A DNA stretch of 28,274 nucleotides from a virus: UHGV virus genome UHGV-1752292; one strand, given 5' to 3'. A program made the translations under genes and the position numbers. Under the pieces are notes generated by a model. That model saw nothing but the letters and a program-made list of their open reading frames with translations. It was not told the DNA's origin and did not search any database. Below are positions 6,960 to 28,274 of this stretch, piece after piece (positions within the stretch are counted from its first letter, which is position 1; every line of letters begins with the position of its first letter).

Positions 6960-7216
6960 GTAAGCCTCTTTTAAGTAACTATTAAGTTTTAATCTTTTAT
7001 CTTAACGTATTCTATACGTTATACTTTAAAGCTTTTTAAAAGCTATTAAATAATCTTTTAAGAGTTTTAAAGTATCTGTATAGTTAAACTGTTAAGTAAC
7101 CTTTTAAGTAAAAACCCACTTCGCAAAGATTAACACCTTGTCAAGTACATTGTCAACTTGCTTTTTATAATTTTTTGCAGTAATGTATGAGGTTAATGAT
7201 TTTAGAGGGAGTAAAA
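6960..7216. promoter_or_regulatory. Divergent AT-rich intergenic control region
   Basis: About 255 bp of AT-rich non-coding DNA between divergently transcribed operons; TATAAT at 7166-7171 about 45 nt upstream of the polymerase start; near-palindrome AGCTTTTTAAAAGCT (7030-7044); recurring CTTTTAAG(A/T) motifs. No clean -35 could be paired with the -10. Confidence 0.4.
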
Positions 7217-9359
7217 ATGGAAAACGTAGATTTTAAAAACTTACATTTAGTTGGTGATACAGAGACTGATGGTTTACTCCTTGAGTTCACTAAGGTGCAC
7301 GTAATGGCTTTCGCAGACTATAAATCTGACGATGAAGAGCCTCCTGTATGGGTCTTTACAGATGAGCCTATCCTCGGTCACAAGTATACCAAGTACATTA
7401 AGGGTGGCTTGCGTGAAGGTGTTGAGTTTGCGTTAAAGGCAAAACGACTTTGCATCCATAATGGTTTAGGGTATGACTGGTGGGTTTTCAATCATATTGC
7501 ACCTGATTTGTGGAACTTTGATAATCCAAAGTGTAAGCCGTGGAGTAATTTCTTTCAGGATTCTCTTATCCAGTCTCGTGTTCAGTGGATGGATAGACCA
7601 ACTCCAAAGGGCTATAAAGGTGCTCATGGCTTGGCAGCATGGGGTGCTCGTGTTGGTGTACGTAAACCAGAGATTGAACATTGGGGTGTGTGGAATGCAG
7701 AAATCTTCACTCGTGTTGTAGAAGATATTCGTATTAACGCCAAAACTAAACGTGCACTGGATAATGAATATCTCAAGCTAAAGAAGTGTGGCGTAGATAC
7801 TTATGAAACCTACATGCGAGCTAAAGAAACATCTTTCTGGATGAGTCAACAAGCTATCAATGGTTGGAAAGCTGATAAAGAGCTTATGGAGTTCCATGTA
7901 AAGGAACTTGACAAGTTGACTAATGAACTTGCTTCAGAGGTTGAACCACATCTACCTCCAACTATTAAGACCAAAGGTAAAGTCACTGGAGAAGAGTTTG
8001 CAAAAGCTTGGAATGAGTATGTTGAAACATTCGGTCATGCAGATGGACTGAAGAGGATTACCAAGTACCCTAAGACAAAGTATCGTCAGCAGGTACGTAA
8101 CGGTGAGATGCAGACATATGAAATCAAGCCATTTGGTAAACCAACTACCAAAATTTTTAACATTGAAAAGCGGAATTGCTATACACCAACCAACTCCGTA
8201 ACTGGTGAAGAGTACAAGGAAGGTTTTGTAGCAATGAAGGATGCTCGTGCAATTTGCAATGAGTTGAATGCAAAGATTGGTAAGAAGTGCAAAGACTGGA
8301 AGCCAGTAAAAACAGTTAAAACTGTGAAGTACTATAATAGCCATGTTGTTAACCACTTTGAACTTGAGTCAAGTCGCTACACAGGTTTGATTGATGCACC
8401 ATATACACCAATTGAGTTCGAAGTTTCTCGTATGACTCAAGTAGCAGTTGTTAAAGACTACTTGAAATCAGTTGGTTGGATTCCAGATGACTGGAACTAC
8501 AAGAAAGACTCAGATGGTCGTCCTGTTAAGGTTTGTCGTTTCAAAGACAACAAAAAGATGATTACAAAACATCCTAAGTGGGATGAGATGGTGGAACGGT
8601 GTGGTTTGAGTTATGTTGAACATGAAGGTGTCCAGTACATTGAACATAACTGGTCTGTGAAGAAGTACACAGATTTGCTTGAACCTTGCTTAATCCGTAC
8701 TTCACCAAAACTTACTGAATCATCTTATGATACGATTGAAGGTGAACTTGGACAGAAGATTGCTAAGTACTACACTTTGATGCACCGACGCAGAACTATT
8801 GAGAACTCAAAGGATGATGAAAAAGGTTGGTTGAACCAGATTCGTCCTGATGGTCGCCTTAGTGCTGGTGCAATGGTGTTTGGTACTTCAACTGGACGTA
8901 TGACACAATATGGTATTGTAAACGTACCATCTGGTGCTGCTGTCTATGGAGCGCCTATGAGGGAGGTTTGGATTTGCGAGGAAGGGACTAATATCGTTTC
9001 AGTTGACCAGAACTCTGCACAGCTTGTTTTACTGTGCAACTTTATGGGTGATAAAGACTTCACCAAAGCGGTAACTGAAGGTAAAGAGTTTGTAGAGTTC
9101 ACTAAACAGGATGATGGACGATACTACTGCAAGCATCTTGATAAGTACCTAAATCCAGAGGCTGATAAATATTGTCGTTACGATGCTGATAACGATTTGT
9201 ATGAAGTCTACACAGGTACTGATGCGCATACACTTAACAGTATCTATTTTGCATTGAACAAAGAAGAAGATATTATCCGTTGTAGAGAGACACAGGATGA
9301 GGAACTTCTTCACGAGATAACTAAAGGCCGTAAGAAGGCTAAGAATGGTATCTATGCGT
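7217..9359 (+). CDS. DNA polymerase (family A, T7 gp5-like), exon 1
   Basis: ATG at 7217 preceded by AGAGGGA (the track ORF starts in-frame at 7187). 3'-5' exonuclease Exo I motif VGDTETDGL near the N-terminus; motif A-like IVSVDQNSAQL; frame runs into the first half of motif B (AKNGIYA) before the intron. Exon end set by the predicted P1 helix (see findings). Confidence 0.8.
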
Positions 9360-10164
9360 CAGTGGCGCATGTAAAACGTTGTGAATTGCTGGAAGCCTAA
9401 GTCTTAAAAGATATGGTAATCAGCAGCGAAGTCTCTGTTAGGACTCCTATAGTAGAAATGGGAGAGAGACAATGGTAGGTTATAAAGAGAGAGTTTGTTC
9501 CAGATGTGGCGAAGAGTTTAAGCCATATCAGTACAATCAAAAACGTTGCAGAAACTGCGTTCTTGAAGTAGACAGGAGAGCAGCAAGCCGTGTCATAGAA
9601 AAGGTATGTCCAAGCTGCAATAACCAATTCACACCTAGAACAGCAAGACAGACATATTGCAGTTCTGCATGTGGAGAAAAGGGAAAGGTAAAGAACTACT
9701 ACTTAAGGACTTACGGCCTAGAAAGAGAAGAGGTTGAAGAGTTGTTAAGTAAATGTGGCCATAAGTGCCAAATCTGTGGCGGTGAAGGTTTCATCATGAA
9801 TGGTTCAAGACATAAAGCTAAACTTGTTGTTGACCATGACCACAAAACAGGTAAGGTGAGAGGGATGTTGTGCCACAACTGTAACAGAGGTCTTGGCTTG
9901 TTCTCAGACAGTGTAGATAATATGCAGAGAGCAATTGCATACCTTAGTAAACAATAGTATTTTAGAGTTCCTAACAGAGAAACGTTCAGAGACTATCGAA
10001 AAGCATACTTAATGTATGAACTGAGTAGAGTAGGGTGGTAAGCTAATGACCATTCCCAAGTGCAACGGTAGTATTACTACTACGTGATATAGTCCGACAC
10101 TCCGTAGAAATGCGGAGAAGTTCATAAGAGAACTGGTACACCTTGCGAGTGTATTGACCAGATG
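9360..10164 (+). mobile_element. Group I self-splicing intron (805 nt) carrying a homing endonuclease ORF
   Basis: P-like element AATTGCTGGAAG (9384-9395) pairing with Q-like AATCAGCAGC (9418-9427); R-like GTTCAGAGACTA (9984-9995) and S-like GATATAGTCC (10086-10095) able to form P7; predicted P1 with U-G pair at the 5' splice site; intron ends in G10164; ORF sits between Q and R (P6 loop). Confidence 0.7.
9472..9957 (+). CDS. Intron-encoded HNH homing endonuclease (Endonuclease VII-like)
   Basis: 161 aa; VVDHDHKTGKVRGMLCHNCNRGLGLF matches the T4 endonuclease VII / HNH core (DHDH…GKVRG.LC..CN); two N-terminal CxxC pairs; GGGAGAGAGA RBS upstream. Confidence 0.8.
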   Translation: MVGYKERVCSRCGEEFKPYQYNQKRCRNCVLEVDRRAASRVIEKVCPSCNNQFTPRTARQTYCSSACGEKGKVKNYYLRTYGLEREEVEELLSKCGHKCQICGGEGFIMNGSRHKAKLVVDHDHKTGKVRGMLCHNCNRGLGLFSDSVDNMQRAIAYLSKQ

Positions 10165-10721
10165 TATTGTTCGGTGCAGGTGATGAGAAGTTTGCTAAGA
10201 CAATTAAGACTGCAACTACTCAGGAAGGTGCACTGACTAAACAGACTTACTTTATTCGTTTGCCTAAAATTAAGAAGCTGCTAGATGACTTGGAAGCTGA
10301 CTACAAAGCGACTAAAAAGGCACTTGAAGAGGTATTTGGTAAGACTGCTGCAATCTCTAAAGGGGGTTTTGTAAAGGTTGCTGGAGCTTGGTTGTGGTGT
10401 AAATCTCCACATAAGTTATTGAATTATTTGCTTATGGGTTCGGAAAGCCAGATTCAGAACGAGGCAATTAACCTCGCTTGCCGTCGTATGATTGACGAAG
10501 GTTTGATGAAGTTAAACGGTCGCAAACCAGCTATAGGTGCTCGTTTATTGTGCTCCTATCACGACGAGACGAGTTGGGAATGCCCAGAAAGTATGACGGC
10601 AGAGGTGAAAGCTGTTACTGATTGGTATTACGGACAAGCCTCTAAGAACTTAGGGCTTAAGAGTGAAACACTAGTAACTGGTACTGGTAAGGTTGGTAAG
10701 TCGTGGTTGGAAGTACATTAA
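10165..10721 (+). CDS. DNA polymerase (family A), exon 2
   Basis: Begins in the second half of motif B (LFGAGDEK, compare T7 YGAGDEK) and contains motif C (SYHDE). The track ORF 10167-10721 starts at TTG, which is not a genuine initiation codon here. Confidence 0.75.
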
Positions 10722-10731
10722 TGGTGTCAAA

Positions 10732-11259
10732 ATGATTACACAAGAACGTTTAAAGGAGCTACTACACTATGACCCCGAAACAGGGGTCTTTACTTGGCTT
10801 CGTAGAGATGGTGACTCAAGGGCTGTTAAAGTCTTTAACAGTCAGTACGCAGGACAGGTAGCGGGGAGCATCCAGATTGACTCAACTGGCCATAAACAGC
10901 TAACTATCTATTTTGACAAGAAAGCACATAAAGCGCACAGACTCGCATGGCTGTATGTGTATGGGAGTTTACCGAGAGGGATTATTGACCATGTTAATGG
11001 GGACTCTCTTGATAACAGGATTGTAAACTTAAGAGAAGCAGATGACTGTCAAAGTGCTTGGAATAAAAGCAAACTAGCCACCAATAAATCAGGCTATAAG
11101 GGTGTAAGTCTGAAGAAGAAGACTGGTAGGTGGGTTGCACAAATAAGCTATAAAGGTAAAAAGATGTTCTTAGGCTACTACGACACACCAGAAGAAGCCC
11201 ATAAAGCTTACTGTGAAGCTGCTATAAAACTCCACGGAGAGTTTGCAAAACTATCTTGA
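10732..11259 (+). CDS. Free-standing HNH homing endonuclease with AP2-type DNA-binding domain
   Basis: ATG at 10732 (track ORF starts at TTG 10693); HNH_3-like motif HRLAWLYVYG…IDHVNGDSLDNRIVNLR followed by AP2-like SGYKGVS…GRWVAQISYKGKKMFLGYYDTPEEAHKAY. Confidence 0.7.
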   Translation: MITQERLKELLHYDPETGVFTWLRRDGDSRAVKVFNSQYAGQVAGSIQIDSTGHKQLTIYFDKKAHKAHRLAWLYVYGSLPRGIIDHVNGDSLDNRIVNLREADDCQSAWNKSKLATNKSGYKGVSLKKKTGRWVAQISYKGKKMFLGYYDTPEEAHKAYCEAAIKLHGEFAKLS

Positions 11260-12156: not shown

Positions 12157-12371
12157 CTGTAGAAGATAAATTTAAGAACGCAGTTCTTACAGAAGATGGT
12201 GAGCTTGAAACATTCATTCTTCGTGTTGATGGTAAGCTATTCCGGTGTCGTTGTGGGTCAAACTGTTTCCATAAACCAGATAAAAATGACTTAGAGCTTT
12301 ACGCATGTAATGCTTGTTACACTTGGTATCACTCAGAGGTTAAAAATGACAATTCTGTACAAACAAAATAA
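12153..12371 (+). CDS. Hypothetical small zinc-ribbon protein
   Basis: 72 aa with CRC…C and C..C pairs (FRCRCGSNCF…ACNACY). Confidence 0.45.
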   Translation: MTVEDKFKNAVLTEDGELETFILRVDGKLFRCRCGSNCFHKPDKNDLELYACNACYTWYHSEVKNDNSVQTK

Positions 12372-13449
12372 AGATGGCTCTTTTAACGTCTGGTCATGCG
12401 TTGCTGTAGGTGACAAAGTTATTACAACCTACGGTAAAGAAAATGGCAAGATGATGTTTGAAGAGTATACAGCAGAACCTAAAAACATCGGTAAAAAGAA
12501 TGAGCGTAACGCTGAACAGCAAGCTCTCTTTGAAGTTGCTGCTAAGTATAAAAAGCAGGTTGACCGCAAAGGTTATGCTTACACAAAAGAGTCTGCACAG
12601 AATACTGAGAAGGTAGGTGTGCAGCTTGCTCATGATGCTGCAAAGGTTAGTCATGCAAAGTATCTGAAGTTCCCTGCTGATGCTCAACCGAAACTTGATG
12701 GTGTACGTTGTAGGATTTCAAGGAACTTGAGCATTGGCAGTGTATTTACAGCATACTCTCGTGAGAATACTGTTTACAAAATCCCTACTGAACTAATACC
12801 TGACATTATGGCAATGTTAAGGCTCCACAAAGATGTTGATGAGTTTGATGGTGAGATTTATGCTCATGGGTGGGACTTAGAAGATATTGTCTCTATGATT
12901 AAAAATGAAGACAATCCTGACCGACACCTACTCAAGTTTTACTGGTACGATATCTGTGATAGTACTAAGACGTGGCCTGAGCGTAGAGATATCATTGAGA
13001 CTTCACCATTGAATGACTTCAGAGACGGCTGTAAAGTTGTTCCTGTTAAGTCTCGTCGTGTAAATTCTTGGGAAGAGTTTGATGAAGCTCATGATAAGTG
13101 GGTTGAAGCTAAGTTTGAAGGTGCAATGTACCGTTCAATCTCTGAAGACTCCTTCTATGAGTGTTGTCACCGTTCATACTTCTTGATTAAGCACAAGAAG
13201 ATGCACACTGAAGAGTTTAAAGTGACTGGTGTAAAGACTGATAAGCGTGGTCATGGCAAGTTCGTTGTAGAGACTCTTCCTAACGTCTTTGTAGATGTCT
13301 CATGGAAGACTACTCATGAGAAGAAACAGTATCTTGCTGAGCATCCTGAAGAGTTTATCGGGAAACCTCTAACGGTTCAGTTCCAGAAGATGACTCGTAA
13401 GGGTTCTTTACAGTTCCCTGTTGGGCTAGTTATTAGGGATTATGAATAA
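12346..13449 (+). CDS. ATP-dependent DNA ligase
   Basis: Start chosen at ATG 12346 (GAGG 6 nt upstream) rather than the in-frame track start at 12310, which overlaps the upstream ORF; adenylation motif I KLDGVRC. Confidence 0.7.
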   Translation: MTILYKQNKDGSFNVWSCVAVGDKVITTYGKENGKMMFEEYTAEPKNIGKKNERNAEQQALFEVAAKYKKQVDRKGYAYTKESAQNTEKVGVQLAHDAAKVSHAKYLKFPADAQPKLDGVRCRISRNLSIGSVFTAYSRENTVYKIPTELIPDIMAMLRLHKDVDEFDGEIYAHGWDLEDIVSMIKNEDNPDRHLLKFYWYDICDSTKTWPERRDIIETSPLNDFRDGCKVVPVKSRRVNSWEEFDEAHDKWVEAKFEGAMYRSISEDSFYECCHRSYFLIKHKKMHTEEFKVTGVKTDKRGHGKFVVETLPNVFVDVSWKTTHEKKQYLAEHPEEFIGKPLTVQFQKMTRKGSLQFPVGLVIRDYE

Positions 13450-13456
13450 AAAGTTG

Positions 13457-13484
13457 TTGACATAGATAATTTGGTGAGTATACT
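13457..13484 (+). promoter_or_regulatory. Near-consensus sigma70-type promoter
   Basis: TTGACA (13457-13462) - 16 nt - TATACT (13479-13484); flanked by a 9-bp inverted repeat (13472-13480 / 13505-13513) spanning the -10 element and predicted start. Confidence 0.5.
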
Positions 13485-13515
13485 GAGCAGCATAAACCAA
13501 CGGGTACTCACCAGC

Positions 13516-13556
13516 ATCACTTAAGAGTCTTCTAAGAGGGTTTTTAAGTGATGTCT
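13516..13556. repeat. 41-nt palindromic element, copy 1
   Basis: ATCACTTAA - 19 nt - TTAAGTGAT (9-bp perfect arms); spacer contains the direct repeat TAAGAG…TAAGAG. 40/41 identical to copy 2. Confidence 0.7.
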
Positions 13557-13608
13557 GGTAAAGTATGGTTCTGTCCGGTAATGCGATGTATGCTATGGTT
13601 TGGTGTGG
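13554..13608 (+). repeat. Pentanucleotide repeat array 1 (11 units, consensus T-N-N-G-G)
   Basis: tctgg taaag tatgg ttctg tccgg taatg cgatg tatgc tatgg tttgg tgtgg: strict 5-nt register with G enriched at positions 4-5. Confidence 0.65.
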
Positions 13609-13614
13609 GTAGTT

Positions 13615-13649
13615 AGTCTCAGCTACATTAAAATGAGACTTACCTTTTT
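13615..13649 (+). terminator. Unit-1 terminal hairpin with downstream T-run (possible terminator)
   Basis: AGTCTCA - gctacattaaaa - TGAGACT (7-bp stem), then tacc and TTTTT (13645-13649); the 4-nt gap before the T-run makes terminator function uncertain. Confidence 0.35.
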
Positions 13650-13675
13650 AAAAGGTCTTTAAGAGGGTCTTTTAA

Positions 13676-13745
13676 TGAGGTTTGTTATGGTCAGGTATGG
13701 TGTGGTGTTGTAAAGTTTGGTGCGGTCAGGTTAGGCTTGGTATGG
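13676..13745 (+). repeat. Pentanucleotide repeat array 2 (14 units, consensus T-N-N-G-G)
   Basis: tgagg tttgt tatgg tcagg tatgg tgtgg tgttg taaag tttgg tgcgg tcagg ttagg cttgg tatgg; preceded by a degenerate copy of the TAAGAGGG element (13655-13675). Confidence 0.7.
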
Positions 13746-13751
13746 GTAGTT

Positions 13752-13777
13752 AATCGAAACTACATAAAAATTCGATT
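13752..13777 (+). other. Unit-2 terminal hairpin (conserved loop, different stem)
   Basis: AATCGAA - actacataaaaa - TTCGATT; an alternative mutually exclusive hairpin GTAGTT - aatcga - AACTAC (13746-13763) overlaps it. Confidence 0.5.
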
Positions 13778-13779
13778 AC

Positions 13780-13820
13780 ATCACTTAAGAGTCTTCTAAG
13801 AGGATTTTTAAGTGATGTCT
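13780..13820. repeat. 41-nt palindromic element, copy 2
   Basis: ATCACTTAAGAGTCTTCTAAGAGGATTTTTAAGTGATGTCT; one substitution relative to copy 1; 264 bp downstream of copy 1. Confidence 0.7.
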
Positions 13821-13877
13821 AGTCAGGTATTGTCCGGTATGGCAAAGCATGGTTCGGTTCGGCAGGGCTTGGTATGG
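13818..13877 (+). repeat. Pentanucleotide repeat array 3 (12 units, consensus T-N-N-G-G)
   Basis: tctag tcagg tattg tccgg tatgg caaag catgg ttcgg ttcgg caggg cttgg tatgg in 5-nt register. Confidence 0.65.
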
Positions 13878-13883
13878 AAGGAT

Positions 13884-13909
13884 GGCAGTAGCCTTATAAA
13901 AAATCTGCC
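13884..13909 (+). other. Unit-3 terminal hairpin
   Basis: GGCAG - tagccttataaaaaat - CTGCC; A-rich 3' half of the loop as in units 1 and 2. Confidence 0.4.
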
Positions 13910-13912
13910 AAA

Positions 13913-13963
13913 TAAGCTATAAAATCTGTTGACAAGTCAGGTGTTATAGCTTATTTTTATACT
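13913..13963 (+). promoter_or_regulatory. 10-bp inverted repeat enclosing a TTGACA hexamer, followed by T-run and TATACT
   Basis: TAAGCTATAA (13913-13922) / TTATAGCTTA (13944-13953) flank TTGACA (13929-13934); TTTTTAT then TATACT (13958-13963) about 40 nt upstream of the 14002 start. -35/-10 spacing of 23 is non-canonical, so this could be an operator, a terminator-like hairpin or a promoter. Confidence 0.3.
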
Positions 13964-14001
13964 CAACGTAATACAAGATTTAATATAACTTTGAGGTCAT
14001 T

Positions 14002-14385
14002 ATGAAAAAGATTTTATTAGCTGCTGCAATGGTTATGGCAATGAATTTACCAGTCAATGCAACAGAACTTCCAAATGTGGACTTATCAGGTGTTCCAGAA
14101 GATACTTGCCAGATTGTAAAAGGTGTTGCTCTGGCTAATGGTGAGTTGCTTAAACCAATCTCTGAAGAGTCTTTAACAGAGATGACTGATAAGGTAACTG
14201 ACTATCAGTATCGTGTTCTTGCAGAGTATTTCCTGCAATCTGCAAATATTAAAGAGAAGCACCCTGATGATATTGATGCGCAGGCTATGCTTAATCATCG
14301 TATCCAGTTTAAAGAGGATTTGATGCAAAAAGCTATGTATGGTGTTGAGTATTTCTTAGAAAACAGAAGCTGCACAGGTATTTGA
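14002..14385 (+). CDS. Small secreted/periplasmic protein with cleavable signal peptide
   Basis: 127 aa; N-terminus MKKILLAAAMVMAMNLPVNA/TE has the positively charged n-region, hydrophobic core and AxA-type cleavage site of a Sec signal peptide; GAGG RBS. Confidence 0.5.
   Translation: MKKILLAAAMVMAMNLPVNATELPNVDLSGVPEDTCQIVKGVALANGELLKPISEESLTEMTDKVTDYQYRVLAEYFLQSANIKEKHPDDIDAQAMLNHRIQFKEDLMQKAMYGVEYFLENRSCTGI

Positions 14386-21959: not shown

Positions 21960-28274
<6,315 letters not shown>

What the first reader, a model, noticed from the sequence alone, without database searches (positions are those of the whole stretch)
13450..13990. Promoter-driven locus of three tandem units, each with an array of 11-14 pentanucleotide GG repeats
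Directly downstream of a near-consensus promoter (TTGACA-N16-TATACT, 13457-13484) lie three ~130-nt non-coding units. Each has a run of 11-14 pentamers in strict 5-nt register with G at positions 4-5 and usually T at position 1 (13554-13608, 13676-13745, 13818-13877), e.g. tatgg tcagg tatgg tgtgg … tttgg tgcgg tcagg ttagg cttgg tatgg. A 5-nt period is incompatible with coding, and the short ATG-initiated ORFs here are stop-rich. A triplet plus 2-nt spacer repeated 11-14 times is the geometry by which ring-shaped or multimeric RNA-binding proteins (TRAP-type GAG/UAG arrays) and sRNA sponges (CsrB/RsmZ GGA arrays) capture protein. GG runs separated by 3-nt loops could also form two-tetrad G-quadruplexes, and iterated short motifs next to hairpins resemble replication origins. 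I could not match this to any element family I know.
Basis: partly seen in the sequence, partly recalled or inferred. Interest (0 to 1): 0.88.

Follow-up and report, generated by a model that had tools for sequence, protein, structure and literature searches.

The report
Effector-less VIPR guide-RNA array in phage
The three GG-repeat units are guide RNAs (vrRNAs) of a VIPR system, a CRISPR-like, phage-borne RNA-guided DNA-silencing system first described in two 2026 preprints, but here the gene for the protein that reads the guides has been deleted, so the guides can only work with protein borrowed from a related phage.

Summary
Three tracts of 11, 14 and 12 pentamers in strict 5-nt register (Y-N-N-G-G) lie downstream of a near-consensus sigma-70 promoter, and the periodicity is far above chance.

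They are not a protein sponge, a G-quadruplex or a replication origin. They are vrRNAs of a type II VIPR system (Viral Interference Programmable Repeat; bioRxiv 2026). One Vipr (RAMP) protomer binds each GGY. The variable NN dinucleotides pair with double-stranded DNA, skipping every third target base.

Features that fit:
- The window is from a Felix O1-like phage.
- Each tract ends in a 32-nt pseudoknot tail with strong covariation.
- All three guides match genes of an E. coli satellite element at 79-83% of NN, always with the skipped base on the codon wobble position.

One feature fails: vipr and its accessory gene vap1 are absent. The locus equals that of a vipr-positive relative (L148) minus a 1,276-bp block holding one vrRNA, vipr and vap1. 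The deletion joins two copies of a repeated leader.

About half of Felix O1-like phage records carry such arrays without vipr. In my sample, the single guides of five such phages match vipr itself. That point is absent from the main text of the discovery preprint.

Verdict: a known kind, in an effector-less form.

The parts
13457..13484 (+). Sigma-70-type promoter P1 (TTGACA-16 nt-TATACT) that would drive the vrRNA array
   Evidence: 11 of 12 consensus matches. Conserved upstream of the first unit in all Felix-like loci.
13515..13553 (+). 5' leader hairpin of unit 1 (CATCACTTAAGAGTCTTCTAAGAGGGTTTTTAAGTGATG). Its 3' arm, TTAAG TGATG, is already in pentamer register.
   Evidence: The near-identical leader of unit 3 folds as a ~19-bp hairpin. 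The same leader precedes many units in relatives.
13554..13608 (+). vrRNA1 guide tract, 11 YNNGG repeats. NN code: CT AA AT TC CC AA GA AT AT TT GT.
   Evidence: Register and periodicity. Identical to unit 1 of the vipr-positive contig L148. Matches 9 of 11 NN in a satellite gene, L172 7668-7699, with the skipped base on the wobble position.
13609..13640 (+). vrRNA1 3' tail, an H-type pseudoknot (GTAG-tt-AGTCTCA-g-CTAC-attaaaa-TGAGACT)
   Evidence: Covariation test: 93% of cells paired, 9 of 11 pairs with compensatory changes, 0 of 500 shuffles as good.
13650..13673 (+). 5' leader hairpin of unit 2 (AAAAGGTCTTTAAGAGGGTCTTTT). The deletion junction that removed vrRNA+vipr+vap1 lies in this repeated leader (about 13643-13680).
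   Evidence: Folds as a 12-bp hairpin. The alignment to L148 places the crossover within GGGTCTTTTAATGAGG.
13676..13745 (+). vrRNA2 guide tract, 14 YNNGG repeats. NN code: GA TT AT CA AT GT GT AA TT GC CA TA TT AT.
   Evidence: Identical to unit 3 of L148. Matches 11 of 14 NN in a satellite gene, L172 5642-5682, minus strand, with the skipped base on the wobble position.
13746..13777 (+). vrRNA2 3' tail pseudoknot (GTAG-tt-AATCGAA-a-CTAC-ataaaaa-TTCGATT)
   Evidence: Stem 2 is fully compensated relative to the vrRNA1 tail.
13779..13817 (+). 5' leader hairpin of unit 3
   Evidence: ~19-bp hairpin. The fold of the whole unit has z = -4.0.
13818..13877 (+). vrRNA3 guide tract, 12 YNNGG repeats. 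NN code: CT CA AT CC AT AA AT TC TC AG TT AT.
   Evidence: Identical to unit 4 of L148. Matches 10 of 12 NN in a satellite gene, L175 5431-5465, minus strand, with the skipped base on the wobble position.
13878..13909 (+). vrRNA3 3' tail pseudoknot (AAGG-at-GGCAG-tag-CCTT-ataaaaaat-CTGCC)
   Evidence: Both stems covary with the other tail classes. This is the commonest tail of the last unit, seen in 37 of 115 units.
13929..13957 (+). Second sigma-70-type promoter (TTGACA-17-TATTTT) for the downstream 127-aa signal-peptide ORF. It marks the end of the vrRNA locus.
   Evidence: 10 of 12 consensus matches.

Best explanation
The locus is an array of three vrRNAs (guide RNAs) of a type II VIPR system of the SUSP1 / Felix O1-like clade.

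Established for SUSP1 by the preprints:
- Each unit yields a roughly 95-100-nt RNA made of 11-14 YNNGG repeats and a 32-nt 3' pseudoknot.
- One Vipr protomer, a ~20-kDa RAMP protein, binds each GGY.
- The protomers form a helical filament that presents the NN dinucleotides.
- The NN dinucleotides pair with a double-stranded DNA target while every third target base is skipped.
- The result is transcriptional silencing.

Shown here:
- This locus has every RNA feature of that system.
- All three guides are directed at genes of a roughly 12-kb satellite element in E. coli chromosomes.
- The effector gene vipr and the accessory gene vap1 are absent from the window.
- The locus is a deletion derivative of a vipr-positive array. 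Recombination between two copies of the repeated unit leader removed one vrRNA, vipr and vap1 (1,276 bp).

Inferred:
- The RNAs are still made from the intact promoter.
- They can act only if Vipr is supplied in trans by a co-infecting vipr-positive relative.
- On its own this phage carries guides without an effector.
For: Repeat tracts:
- The 5-nt register is far above chance.
- In 39 related loci the GGY positions are kept (last G 98%, Y 99%) while NN is hypervariable. Register and the terminal TATGG are invariant.
- The tracts are no more structured than shuffles, z about 0.

Tail:
- The pseudoknot has 9 of 11 compensatory pairs, and 0 of 500 shuffles do as well.

Link to Vipr:
- In a blind scan of viral contigs, heterogeneous YNNGG arrays sit next to one protein family, on the same strand, in 33 loci.
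- That protein matches PDB 36pp 'SUSP1 Vipr protein' at E = 5e-127.
- The papers describe vrRNAs of 9-16 YNNGG repeats with a pseudoknot tail, the 1-nt skip rule, and satellite targets.

Targets of the window's guides in only 7 satellite loci:
- 9/11, 11/14 and 10/12 NN matched.
- The skipped base is the codon wobble position in all three.
- Shuffled-guide maxima are 7-8.
- Binomial expectation is 4e-6 to 2e-4.
- There is no self-target in the window.

Loss of the effector:
- The array is identical to that of vipr-positive L148 apart from the 1,276-bp block.
- vipr and vap1 are absent from the window, tblastn E > 2.
Against: - No transcript data exist for this phage. Expression is inferred from the promoter and from SUSP1 small-RNA sequencing in the paper.
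- Only 28 kb of a roughly 86-kb genome is visible, so a vipr copy elsewhere cannot be formally excluded. In all 118 vipr-positive Ounavirinae records, however, the gene occurs once, and it lies beside the array in every such locus I examined.
- Target matches are 79-83%, not perfect, and only 7 satellite variants were examined.
- vrRNA1 has several degenerate repeats (TAAAG, TTCTG, TAATG, CGATG, TATGC).
- The VIPR mechanism itself rests on two preprints from one laboratory.
Confidence: 0.9

Rival explanations
1. Inert relic. The array is a recent leftover of the cassette deletion. It may still be transcribed, but it has no function and will decay or be lost.
For: - The window's units are 100% identical to those of vipr-positive L148, although the aligned blocks of flanking DNA are about 80-95% identical, which suggests a recent event.
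- vipr-less arrays have fewer units (1-3 against 3-5) and a slightly lower share of canonical YNNGG pentamers (0.74 against 0.80).
- No vipr-like DNA occurs in 5,426 E. coli genomes, so the host cannot supply the protein.
Against: - About half of Ounavirinae records with arrays lack vipr, including Felix O1 itself.
- Those arrays still keep the last G at 98% and Y at 99%, and 30 of the 35 sampled units are distinct.
- 6 of 29 vipr-less guides still match satellites at 80% or more.
- Independent guides in vipr-less phages converge on the vipr gene. Drift does not predict that.
Confidence: 0.35
2. Trans-acting orphan guides. vipr-less phages keep vrRNAs in order to load Vipr made by a co-infecting vipr-positive relative. 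That Vipr is then either directed to their own choice of targets (here the satellite) or, in the single-unit phages, turned against the rival's own vipr gene.
For: - GGY integrity is kept in vipr-less arrays.
- The window's guides still match satellite genes in phase.
- 5 of 26 guides found only in vipr-less phages match the vipr cassette at 80% or more. The figure is 0 of 56 for guides of vipr-positive phages and 0 of 410 for shuffles, whose maximum is 0.64.
- The vipr matches fall at four different sites, and the three coding-sequence sites are in codon phase.
- Vipr is 96-100% identical across the subfamily, so any guide should load onto any Vipr.
Against: - The evidence is purely computational.
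- The window's own guides do not target vipr.
- The frequency of co-infection is unknown.
- The benefit of silencing a rival's vipr is not obvious, because vipr-positive guides mostly hit satellites rather than phages.
Confidence: 0.4
3. A protein sponge or decoy RNA (TRAP-, CsrB- or Racr-like) that titrates an RNA-binding protein and has no targeting role.
For: The periodic protein-binding geometry is real: one protomer binds per repeat. In a vipr-less phage the RNAs could soak up a rival's Vipr.
Against: - The NN positions carry specific, in-phase matches to satellite genes. A pure sponge would not need them.
- The triplet is GGY, not GAG/UAG or GGA.
- The tracts are unstructured rather than GGA-in-loop hairpins.
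Confidence: 0.08
4. A structural DNA or RNA element: two-tetrad G-quadruplexes, an R-loop-primed replication origin, or iterons.
For: GG runs are spaced by 3 nt, the non-template strand is strongly G over C, and the locus lies in the replication-gene neighbourhood next to DNA ligase.
Against: - The first G of the GG is the least conserved constrained position (77-82%), whereas a quadruplex needs both Gs.
- Strict register and a pyrimidine at position 1 are not needed for a G-quadruplex or an R-loop.
- Cryo-EM shows the GGY bases flipped into protein pockets.
- The co-occurring protein is a RAMP, not a replication initiator.
Confidence: 0.02

Closest known systems
Type II VIPR system of Escherichia phage SUSP1 (vipr, vap1 and vrRNAs; bioRxiv 10.64898/2026.04.26.720920 and 10.64898/2026.04.26.720927)
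   Same: - YNNGG repeat tracts of 11-14 units.
- A hypervariable NN code.
- A 3' pseudoknot tail.
- The same genomic slot, between DNA ligase and the 127-aa ORF.
- Guides matching the E. coli satellite under the 1-nt skip rule with wobble phasing.
- No self-targeting.
   Different: vipr and vap1 are missing, and only three vrRNAs remain, driven from one promoter.
Class 1 CRISPR crRNA with its Cas7 (RAMP) backbone
   Same: A RAMP protein oligomerises along a guide RNA and flips out bases at a fixed period. The variable guide is capped by a conserved structured handle.
   Different: - The period is 5 nt with 3 bases sequestered and 2 pairing, against 6 nt with 1 flipped.
- The target is read with gaps.
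- There is no repeat-spacer array and no acquisition genes.
- It is carried by a virus.
Orphan CRISPR arrays and phage-encoded RNA anti-CRISPRs or mini-arrays (from my own knowledge, not checked here)
   Same: Guide or repeat RNAs are carried without the effector genes and depend on, or interfere with, an effector made by another genome.
   Different: - The system is different (VIPR).
- The orphan RNAs here are full-length guides with credible targets, not bare repeat mimics.
- Function in trans is untested.
TRAP-binding (G/U)AG arrays of the Bacillus trp leader (from my own knowledge)
   Same: About 11 triplets are spaced by 2 nt and read by a homo-oligomer at one subunit per repeat.
   Different: - The triplet is GGY, not GAG/UAG.
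- The protein forms a helical filament, not a closed ring.
- The spacer nucleotides carry information.
- The output is DNA targeting, not attenuation.

Membership tests
VIPR (type II, SUSP1 clade) vrRNA | 9-16 tandem YNNGG repeats with conserved GGY and hypervariable NN | tested here: met
   11, 14 and 12 repeats. Periodicity z = 7-8. Across 82 unique arrays, position 5 is G in 98%, position 1 is Y in 99%, position 4 is G in 77-82%, and positions 2-3 are near random.
VIPR (type II, SUSP1 clade) vrRNA | Invariable 3' tail folding as a pseudoknot | tested here: met
   32-nt H-type pseudoknot after each tract. 93% of cells paired, 9 of 11 pairs compensatory, 0 of 500 shuffles as good, slid controls 28-39%.
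VIPR (type II, SUSP1 clade) vrRNA | NN code matches natural DNA targets under the 1-nt skip rule, with the skipped base at the codon wobble position | tested here: met
   vr1 9/11, vr2 11/14 and vr3 10/12 NN in E. coli satellite genes, all in wobble phase. Shuffled-guide maximum 7-8.
VIPR (type II, SUSP1 clade) vrRNA | No self-targeting of the carrying genome | tested here: met
   The best self matches in the 28-kb window are 5-6 NN of 11-14, which is background level.
VIPR (type II, SUSP1 clade) locus | Adjacent vipr gene (minimal RAMP protein, about 195 aa) | tested here: not met
   tblastn of Vipr against the window gives only noise, E > 4. The gene is present next to the arrays in 20 of 39 related loci and in 118 Ounavirinae records. 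The window equals L148 minus the cassette.
VIPR (type II, SUSP1 clade) locus | Accessory gene vap1 (146 aa) after vipr | tested here: not met
   tblastn E > 2.
VIPR (type II, SUSP1 clade) vrRNA | Expressed as roughly 100-nt RNAs that co-purify with Vipr | not testable with these tools
   Only a promoter match is available here. Small-RNA sequencing and pull-down exist for SUSP1 in the paper.
TRAP-type (G/U)AG binding array | GAG/UAG triplets spaced by 2-3 nt, and a TRAP protein in the host or phage | tested here: not met
   The conserved triplet is GGY. The partner protein is a RAMP with a solved structure, PDB 36pp.
CsrB/RsmZ-type sponge | GGA motifs presented in hairpin loops | tested here: not met
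   GG is followed by a pyrimidine in 99% of repeats. The tracts fold no better than shuffles. There is no Rfam match.
G-quadruplex array | Four or more intact GG runs, with function independent of register | tested here: inconclusive
   GG runs exist, but the first G is dispensable in 18-23% of repeats while the register is never broken. This fits protein reading, not tetrads.

The most novel reading that the evidence does not exclude
Effector-less vrRNA arrays are not debris. They are a strategy: Felix O1-like phages that lack vipr keep intact guides that load the Vipr protein of a co-infecting rival. In multi-unit arrays such as this window's, the borrowed effector is pointed at the shared satellite parasite. 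In the single-unit phages (Felix O1, phiWec174, EC6, SP3, and one guide of the two-unit NBSal004) it is turned against the rival's own vipr gene, making the guide an RNA 'anti-VIPR'. This would be guide-RNA piracy between viruses. It is not mentioned in the main text of the discovery preprint, which I searched for it.
Probability: 0.35. Interest if true: 0.85.

Novelty: new member of a known kind. Interest (0 to 1): 0.6.

Why it matters
VIPR is a newly described, minimal RNA-guided DNA-recognition system proposed to predate CRISPR.

This window shows the RNA half of such a system surviving without its protein half. The comparison set shows this is common: about half of Felix O1-like phage records.

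If these orphan guides work in trans, effectors can be pirated by RNAs from rival genomes. That is a new layer in virus-virus conflict, and a natural precedent for supplying only guides to reprogram a resident effector.

The finding also warns annotators. These 550-nt 'intergenic gaps' are usually left unannotated in phage records or given spurious small ORFs, but they are guide arrays with readable targets.

Tried and rejected
- Rfam gathering and E-value scans found nothing meaningful. Tandem Repeats Finder misses the arrays because the units differ. No tRNA is present.
- Coding: the short ORFs (21, 12 and 37 aa) are not conserved in Shigella phage Z31, so this was rejected.
- Before the protein link appeared I considered several ideas from memory: a TRAP-like ring binder, a CsrA sponge, anti-Shine-Dalgarno pairing, binding of tRNA 3' RCCA ends by GGU (as in RNase P L15), boxA/boxC-like antitermination signals, an R-loop origin, primase sites, and Chi-like or RecA-preferred GT-rich DNA. 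None explained strict register together with hypervariable NN. All became unnecessary once the Vipr link was found.
- Pfam, NCBIfam and PADLOC gave no hits on Vipr or vap1.
- Target hunt in IMG/VR with 9-repeat exact seeds: the vr2 seed gave no hit. The vr3 seed gave 14 hits. Thirteen are one unrelated conserved gene motif that does not extend beyond the seed (19 of 24 bases). The fourteenth (L128) reaches 10 of 12 NN but was found through the seed, so it is not significant. This was a false lead.
- First attempt to find the satellite used the wrong gene, baseplate hub 25633-26610. It gave no E. coli DNA match and no chromosomal protein homologue. The right gene was the homologue of SUSP1 agp017, window 26951-27748.
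- The array region itself has no match in E. coli genomes. The 7 satellites examined carry no arrays and no vipr.
- The satellite target genes have no Pfam or PHROG match.
Full report
**1. The observation**

The region between the DNA ligase gene (12310-13449) and a 127-aa signal-peptide ORF (14002-14385) holds three pentamer tracts:
- 13554-13608, 11 pentamers.
- 13676-13745, 14 pentamers.
- 13818-13877, 12 pentamers.

The periodicity is far above chance:
- G autocorrelation peaks at lags 5, 10, 15 and 20, with z = 7.2, 7.8, 6.5 and 5.1 against 2000 shuffles.
- It is depleted at the lags in between.
- No other place in the 28-kb window has 10 of 11 G in register.

The promoter TTGACA-16-TATACT at 13457-13484 matches 11 of 12 consensus positions. 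A second promoter at 13929-13957 closes the locus. Rfam, ARAGORN and Tandem Repeats Finder are silent here.

**2. Origin and conservation**

The window is from a Felix O1-like myovirus (Felixounavirus, Ounavirinae). 259 phage records match the 1.5 kb around the locus, and 231 match the non-coding part alone.

In relatives from three genera (Felixounavirus, Suspvirus, Mooglevirus) the same slot holds 1 to 5 units. Across 82 unique arrays from 39 loci:
- The pentamer register is never broken.
- The last G is kept in 98% of repeats.
- Position 1 is T or C in 99%.
- The first G is kept in 77-82%.
- Positions 2-3 are nearly random.

Nearly all arrays end in TATGG. The short ORFs that can be read in the window are not conserved. 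This pattern means selection on a periodic T/C..GG motif, with free or diversifying dinucleotides between.

**3. Finding the family**

I scanned IMG/VR for six consecutive GGT-NN repeats. Besides true microsatellites, this returned dozens of unrelated viral contigs with heterogeneous YNNGG arrays.

I clustered the ORFs around those arrays. One protein family of 185-258 aa is present in 33 loci. It lies beside the arrays and on their strand (immediately adjacent in most loci). It includes the 195-aa gene that sits inside the array of many Felix-like phages.

That protein has no Pfam, NCBIfam or PADLOC match. It matches PDB entry 36pp, 'SUSP1 Vipr protein', at E = 5e-127.

The literature search then found two bioRxiv preprints from April-June 2026. 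[quoted passage not shown]
- Vipr is a minimal RAMP protein.
- vap is an accessory gene.
- vrRNAs consist of 9-16 YNNGG repeats followed by an invariable tail, which is a pseudoknot in the SUSP1 clade.
- Cryo-EM shows one Vipr protomer per repeat in a right-handed helical filament.
- G, G and Y are flipped into protein pockets, and the two N bases are presented for pairing.
- Target DNA is read with every third base skipped.
- The outcome is transcriptional silencing.
- In the SUSP1 clade, 18 of 20 guides with identifiable targets hit a satellite phage in E. coli genomes.

**4. Membership tests on the window**

(a) Repeats: met (section 1).

(b) Tail: met. The 32 nt after each tract fit one H-type pseudoknot template. 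Stem 1 pairs columns 1-4 with 15-18. Stem 2 pairs columns 7-13 with 26-32.
- The window's three tails are GTAG/CTAC with AGTCTCA/TGAGACT, GTAG/CTAC with AATCGAA/TTCGATT, and AAGG/CCTT with GGCAG/CTGCC.
- On 15 distinct tails, 93% of cells pair and 9 of 11 pairs show compensatory changes.
- 0 of 500 shuffles do as well, and slid controls pair at only 28-39%.
- Caveat: these tails fall into about four classes, so the independent events are few.

(c) Guide tract unstructured: met. The three tracts fold no better than shuffles, with z = -0.10, 0.07 and 0.05.

(d) Targets: met.
- I located the satellite through the window's homologue of SUSP1 agp017 (26951-27748). It matches 474 of 5,426 complete E. 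coli genomes at 92-94% identity in the best matches, over 544 nt.
- I fetched seven variants of the roughly 12-kb island.
- Under the NN-x rule, vr1 matches 9/11 NN in a 236-aa gene annotated 'transposase' (L172 7668-7699).
- vr2 matches 11/14 NN in a 184-aa hypothetical gene (L172 5642-5682, antisense).
- vr3 matches 10/12 NN in the homologous 185-aa gene of another variant (L175 5431-5465, antisense).
- In all three the skipped base is the codon wobble position.
- Shuffled guides reach at most 7-8. Binomial expectations over the sequence searched are 4e-6 to 2e-4.
- The mismatches fall mainly on degenerate pentamers and on the constant terminal TATGG.

(e) No self-target in the window: met.

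(f) vipr and vap1: not met. tblastn finds nothing in the window.

**5. What happened to the effector**

The vipr-positive IMG/VR contig L148 carries four units. Its units 1, 3 and 4 are identical to the window's vr1, vr2 and vr3. The 350 nt from vr2 to the downstream gene are 100% identical, although the aligned blocks of flanking DNA are only about 80-95% identical.

The window lacks exactly L148's unit 2, vipr and vap1 (1,276 bp). The junction lies inside the leader that precedes both unit 2 and unit 3 (TTTTTAAAAGGTCTTTAA..GGGTCTTTTAATGAGG). This points to recombination between direct repeats.

**6. How common is the effector-less state**

- Vipr (at least 90% identical) is encoded in 118 Ounavirinae records, once per record. 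It sits beside the array in every vipr-positive locus I examined.
- Arrays are present in 231-259 records.
- Among Salmonella phages the ratio is 17 records with vipr against 75-77 with arrays.
- In my 39 loci, vipr-positive phages have 3-5 units apart from one locus that is cut off by its contig end. vipr-less phages have 1-3 units.
- Array integrity is almost the same: canonical YNNGG 0.80 against 0.74, and the last G at 98% in both.
- vipr-like DNA is absent from 5,426 E. coli genomes, so the host does not supply the protein.

**7. An unexpected pattern among the relatives** (not in the window itself)

I scanned all guides against all held sequence. The best matches were guides of vipr-less phages against the vipr gene of vipr-positive relatives:

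| Guide carried by | Target in the vipr cassette | NN matched |
|---|---|---|
| Felix O1a and phiWec174 | codons 157-167 | 10/11 |
| EC6 | codons 13-21, antisense | 8/9 |
| SP3 | codons 1-10 including the start codon, antisense | 9/10 |
| NBSal004 (second guide) | 122 nt upstream of vipr | 12/14 |

The three coding-sequence matches are in codon phase.

- 5 of 26 guides found only in vipr-less phages reach 80% or more on the vipr cassette.
- The figure is 0 of 56 for guides of vipr-positive phages, and 0 of 410 for shuffles (maximum 0.64).
- The NBSal004 site lies partly in G-rich array sequence and deserves more caution.

Independent guides converging on vipr are hard to explain by drift. They suggest that orphan guides use a rival's Vipr against the rival's own vipr gene.

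The discovery preprint's main text reports vrRNAs that target other VIPR systems in a Pseudomonas clade. It does not mention effector-less arrays. Its supplements were not available to me. No other paper in the library mentions vrRNAs.

**8. Verdict**

The finding is a genuine and striking element, and its kind is now known: a type II VIPR vrRNA array.

The proposed functions (sponge, G-quadruplex, origin) were not.

The window's copy is a deletion derivative that lacks the effector. Its guides are intact and still match their satellite targets. Whether they are a fresh relic or are used in trans cannot be decided computationally. I put roughly one third on 'relic' and somewhat more on 'usable in trans'.

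**9. Limits**

- There are no expression data for this phage.
- Only 28 kb of the genome is visible.
- Only seven satellite variants were examined.
- My sample of 39 loci was not random.
- Sequences are related, so counts of pentamers and tails overstate independence.
- The mechanism rests on two preprints from one laboratory.

Noticed in passing
L003 2594-2658 (Salmonella phage FO1a); L166, L163, L142/L165, L160 (related vipr-less phages); targets in L145, L148, L151, L156 and others: The vrRNAs of vipr-less Felix O1-type phages match the vipr gene of vipr-positive relatives under the 1-nt skip rule. Four distinct sites are hit at 8/9 to 12/14 NN, and the three coding-sequence sites are in codon phase. 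No guide from a vipr-positive phage and no shuffled guide does this.
   Followed up: partly
window 13515-13553, 13650-13673, 13779-13817: Each vrRNA is preceded by a stable leader hairpin of one of two classes, both containing GTCTTYTAAGAGG. The preprint text I read does not mention it. It could be a processing or termination signal. It is also the direct repeat across which the vipr cassette was deleted.
   Followed up: partly
window 26951-27748 (- strand); L170-L176: This 265-aa tail or baseplate gene has a chromosomal copy in 474 of 5,426 complete E. coli genomes, 92-94% identical in the best matches (lower in other variants). The copy lies in a roughly 12-kb island holding a tape-measure gene, a Dam-like methylase, an HTH gene and serine recombinases. 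The island is inserted in mdtG, a DUF72 gene, or near tonB. It is the satellite targeted by the guides.
   Followed up: yes
L099 1-800; L123 3560-3990; L057; L059 4860-7400; L089; L114: Other viral contigs show different vrRNA array layouts. These include at least 8 units separated by a ~43-nt GC-rich hairpin (L099), back-to-back tracts punctuated by GGCAG (L123, L057), and tracts of up to 37-52 repeats (L059, L114), well beyond the 9-16 reported.
   Followed up: no
L002, L004-L006, L008, L100, L145-L156 (vipr genes): Vipr is 96-100% identical in protein across three Ounavirinae genera. In the window/L148 comparison the surrounding DNA is about 80-95% identical. This suggests the cassette moves horizontally or is under very strong constraint.
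   Followed up: no
window 7187-9400, 9472-9957, 10167-11259: The family-A DNA polymerase ORF (737 aa) is followed by a free-standing endonuclease VII / HNH-type ORF (161 aa) and then two more ORFs. In phage wV8 the polymerase is one 907-aa gene. The polymerase here may therefore be split by a homing-endonuclease insertion.
   Followed up: no
L007, L015, L017-L021, L048, L049, L102-L107 (58-60-kb viral contigs): Perfect (TCGGG)5-10 microsatellites recur in one group of ~58-60-kb phage genomes. Other contigs carry (TCAGG)n, (TCTGG)n and (TTAGG/TAAGG)n. These are homogeneous repeats, not vrRNA-like arrays, and I did not examine them further.
   Followed up: no
window 13472-13513: An 8-bp inverted repeat (GGTGAGTA ... 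TACTCACC) brackets the -10 element and the first ~25 nt downstream of promoter P1. It is conserved in relatives. It may be a regulator binding site or a leader structure.
   Followed up: no
GenBank records MN850564.1 (humlepung), NC_012749.1 (wV8), KY654690.2 (Mijalis), MZ501086.1 (Bas63): Public annotations label parts of these arrays as 'repeat_region' or 'DR_4', or place small hypothetical CDSs over or beside them. None annotates them as RNA genes.
   Followed up: no
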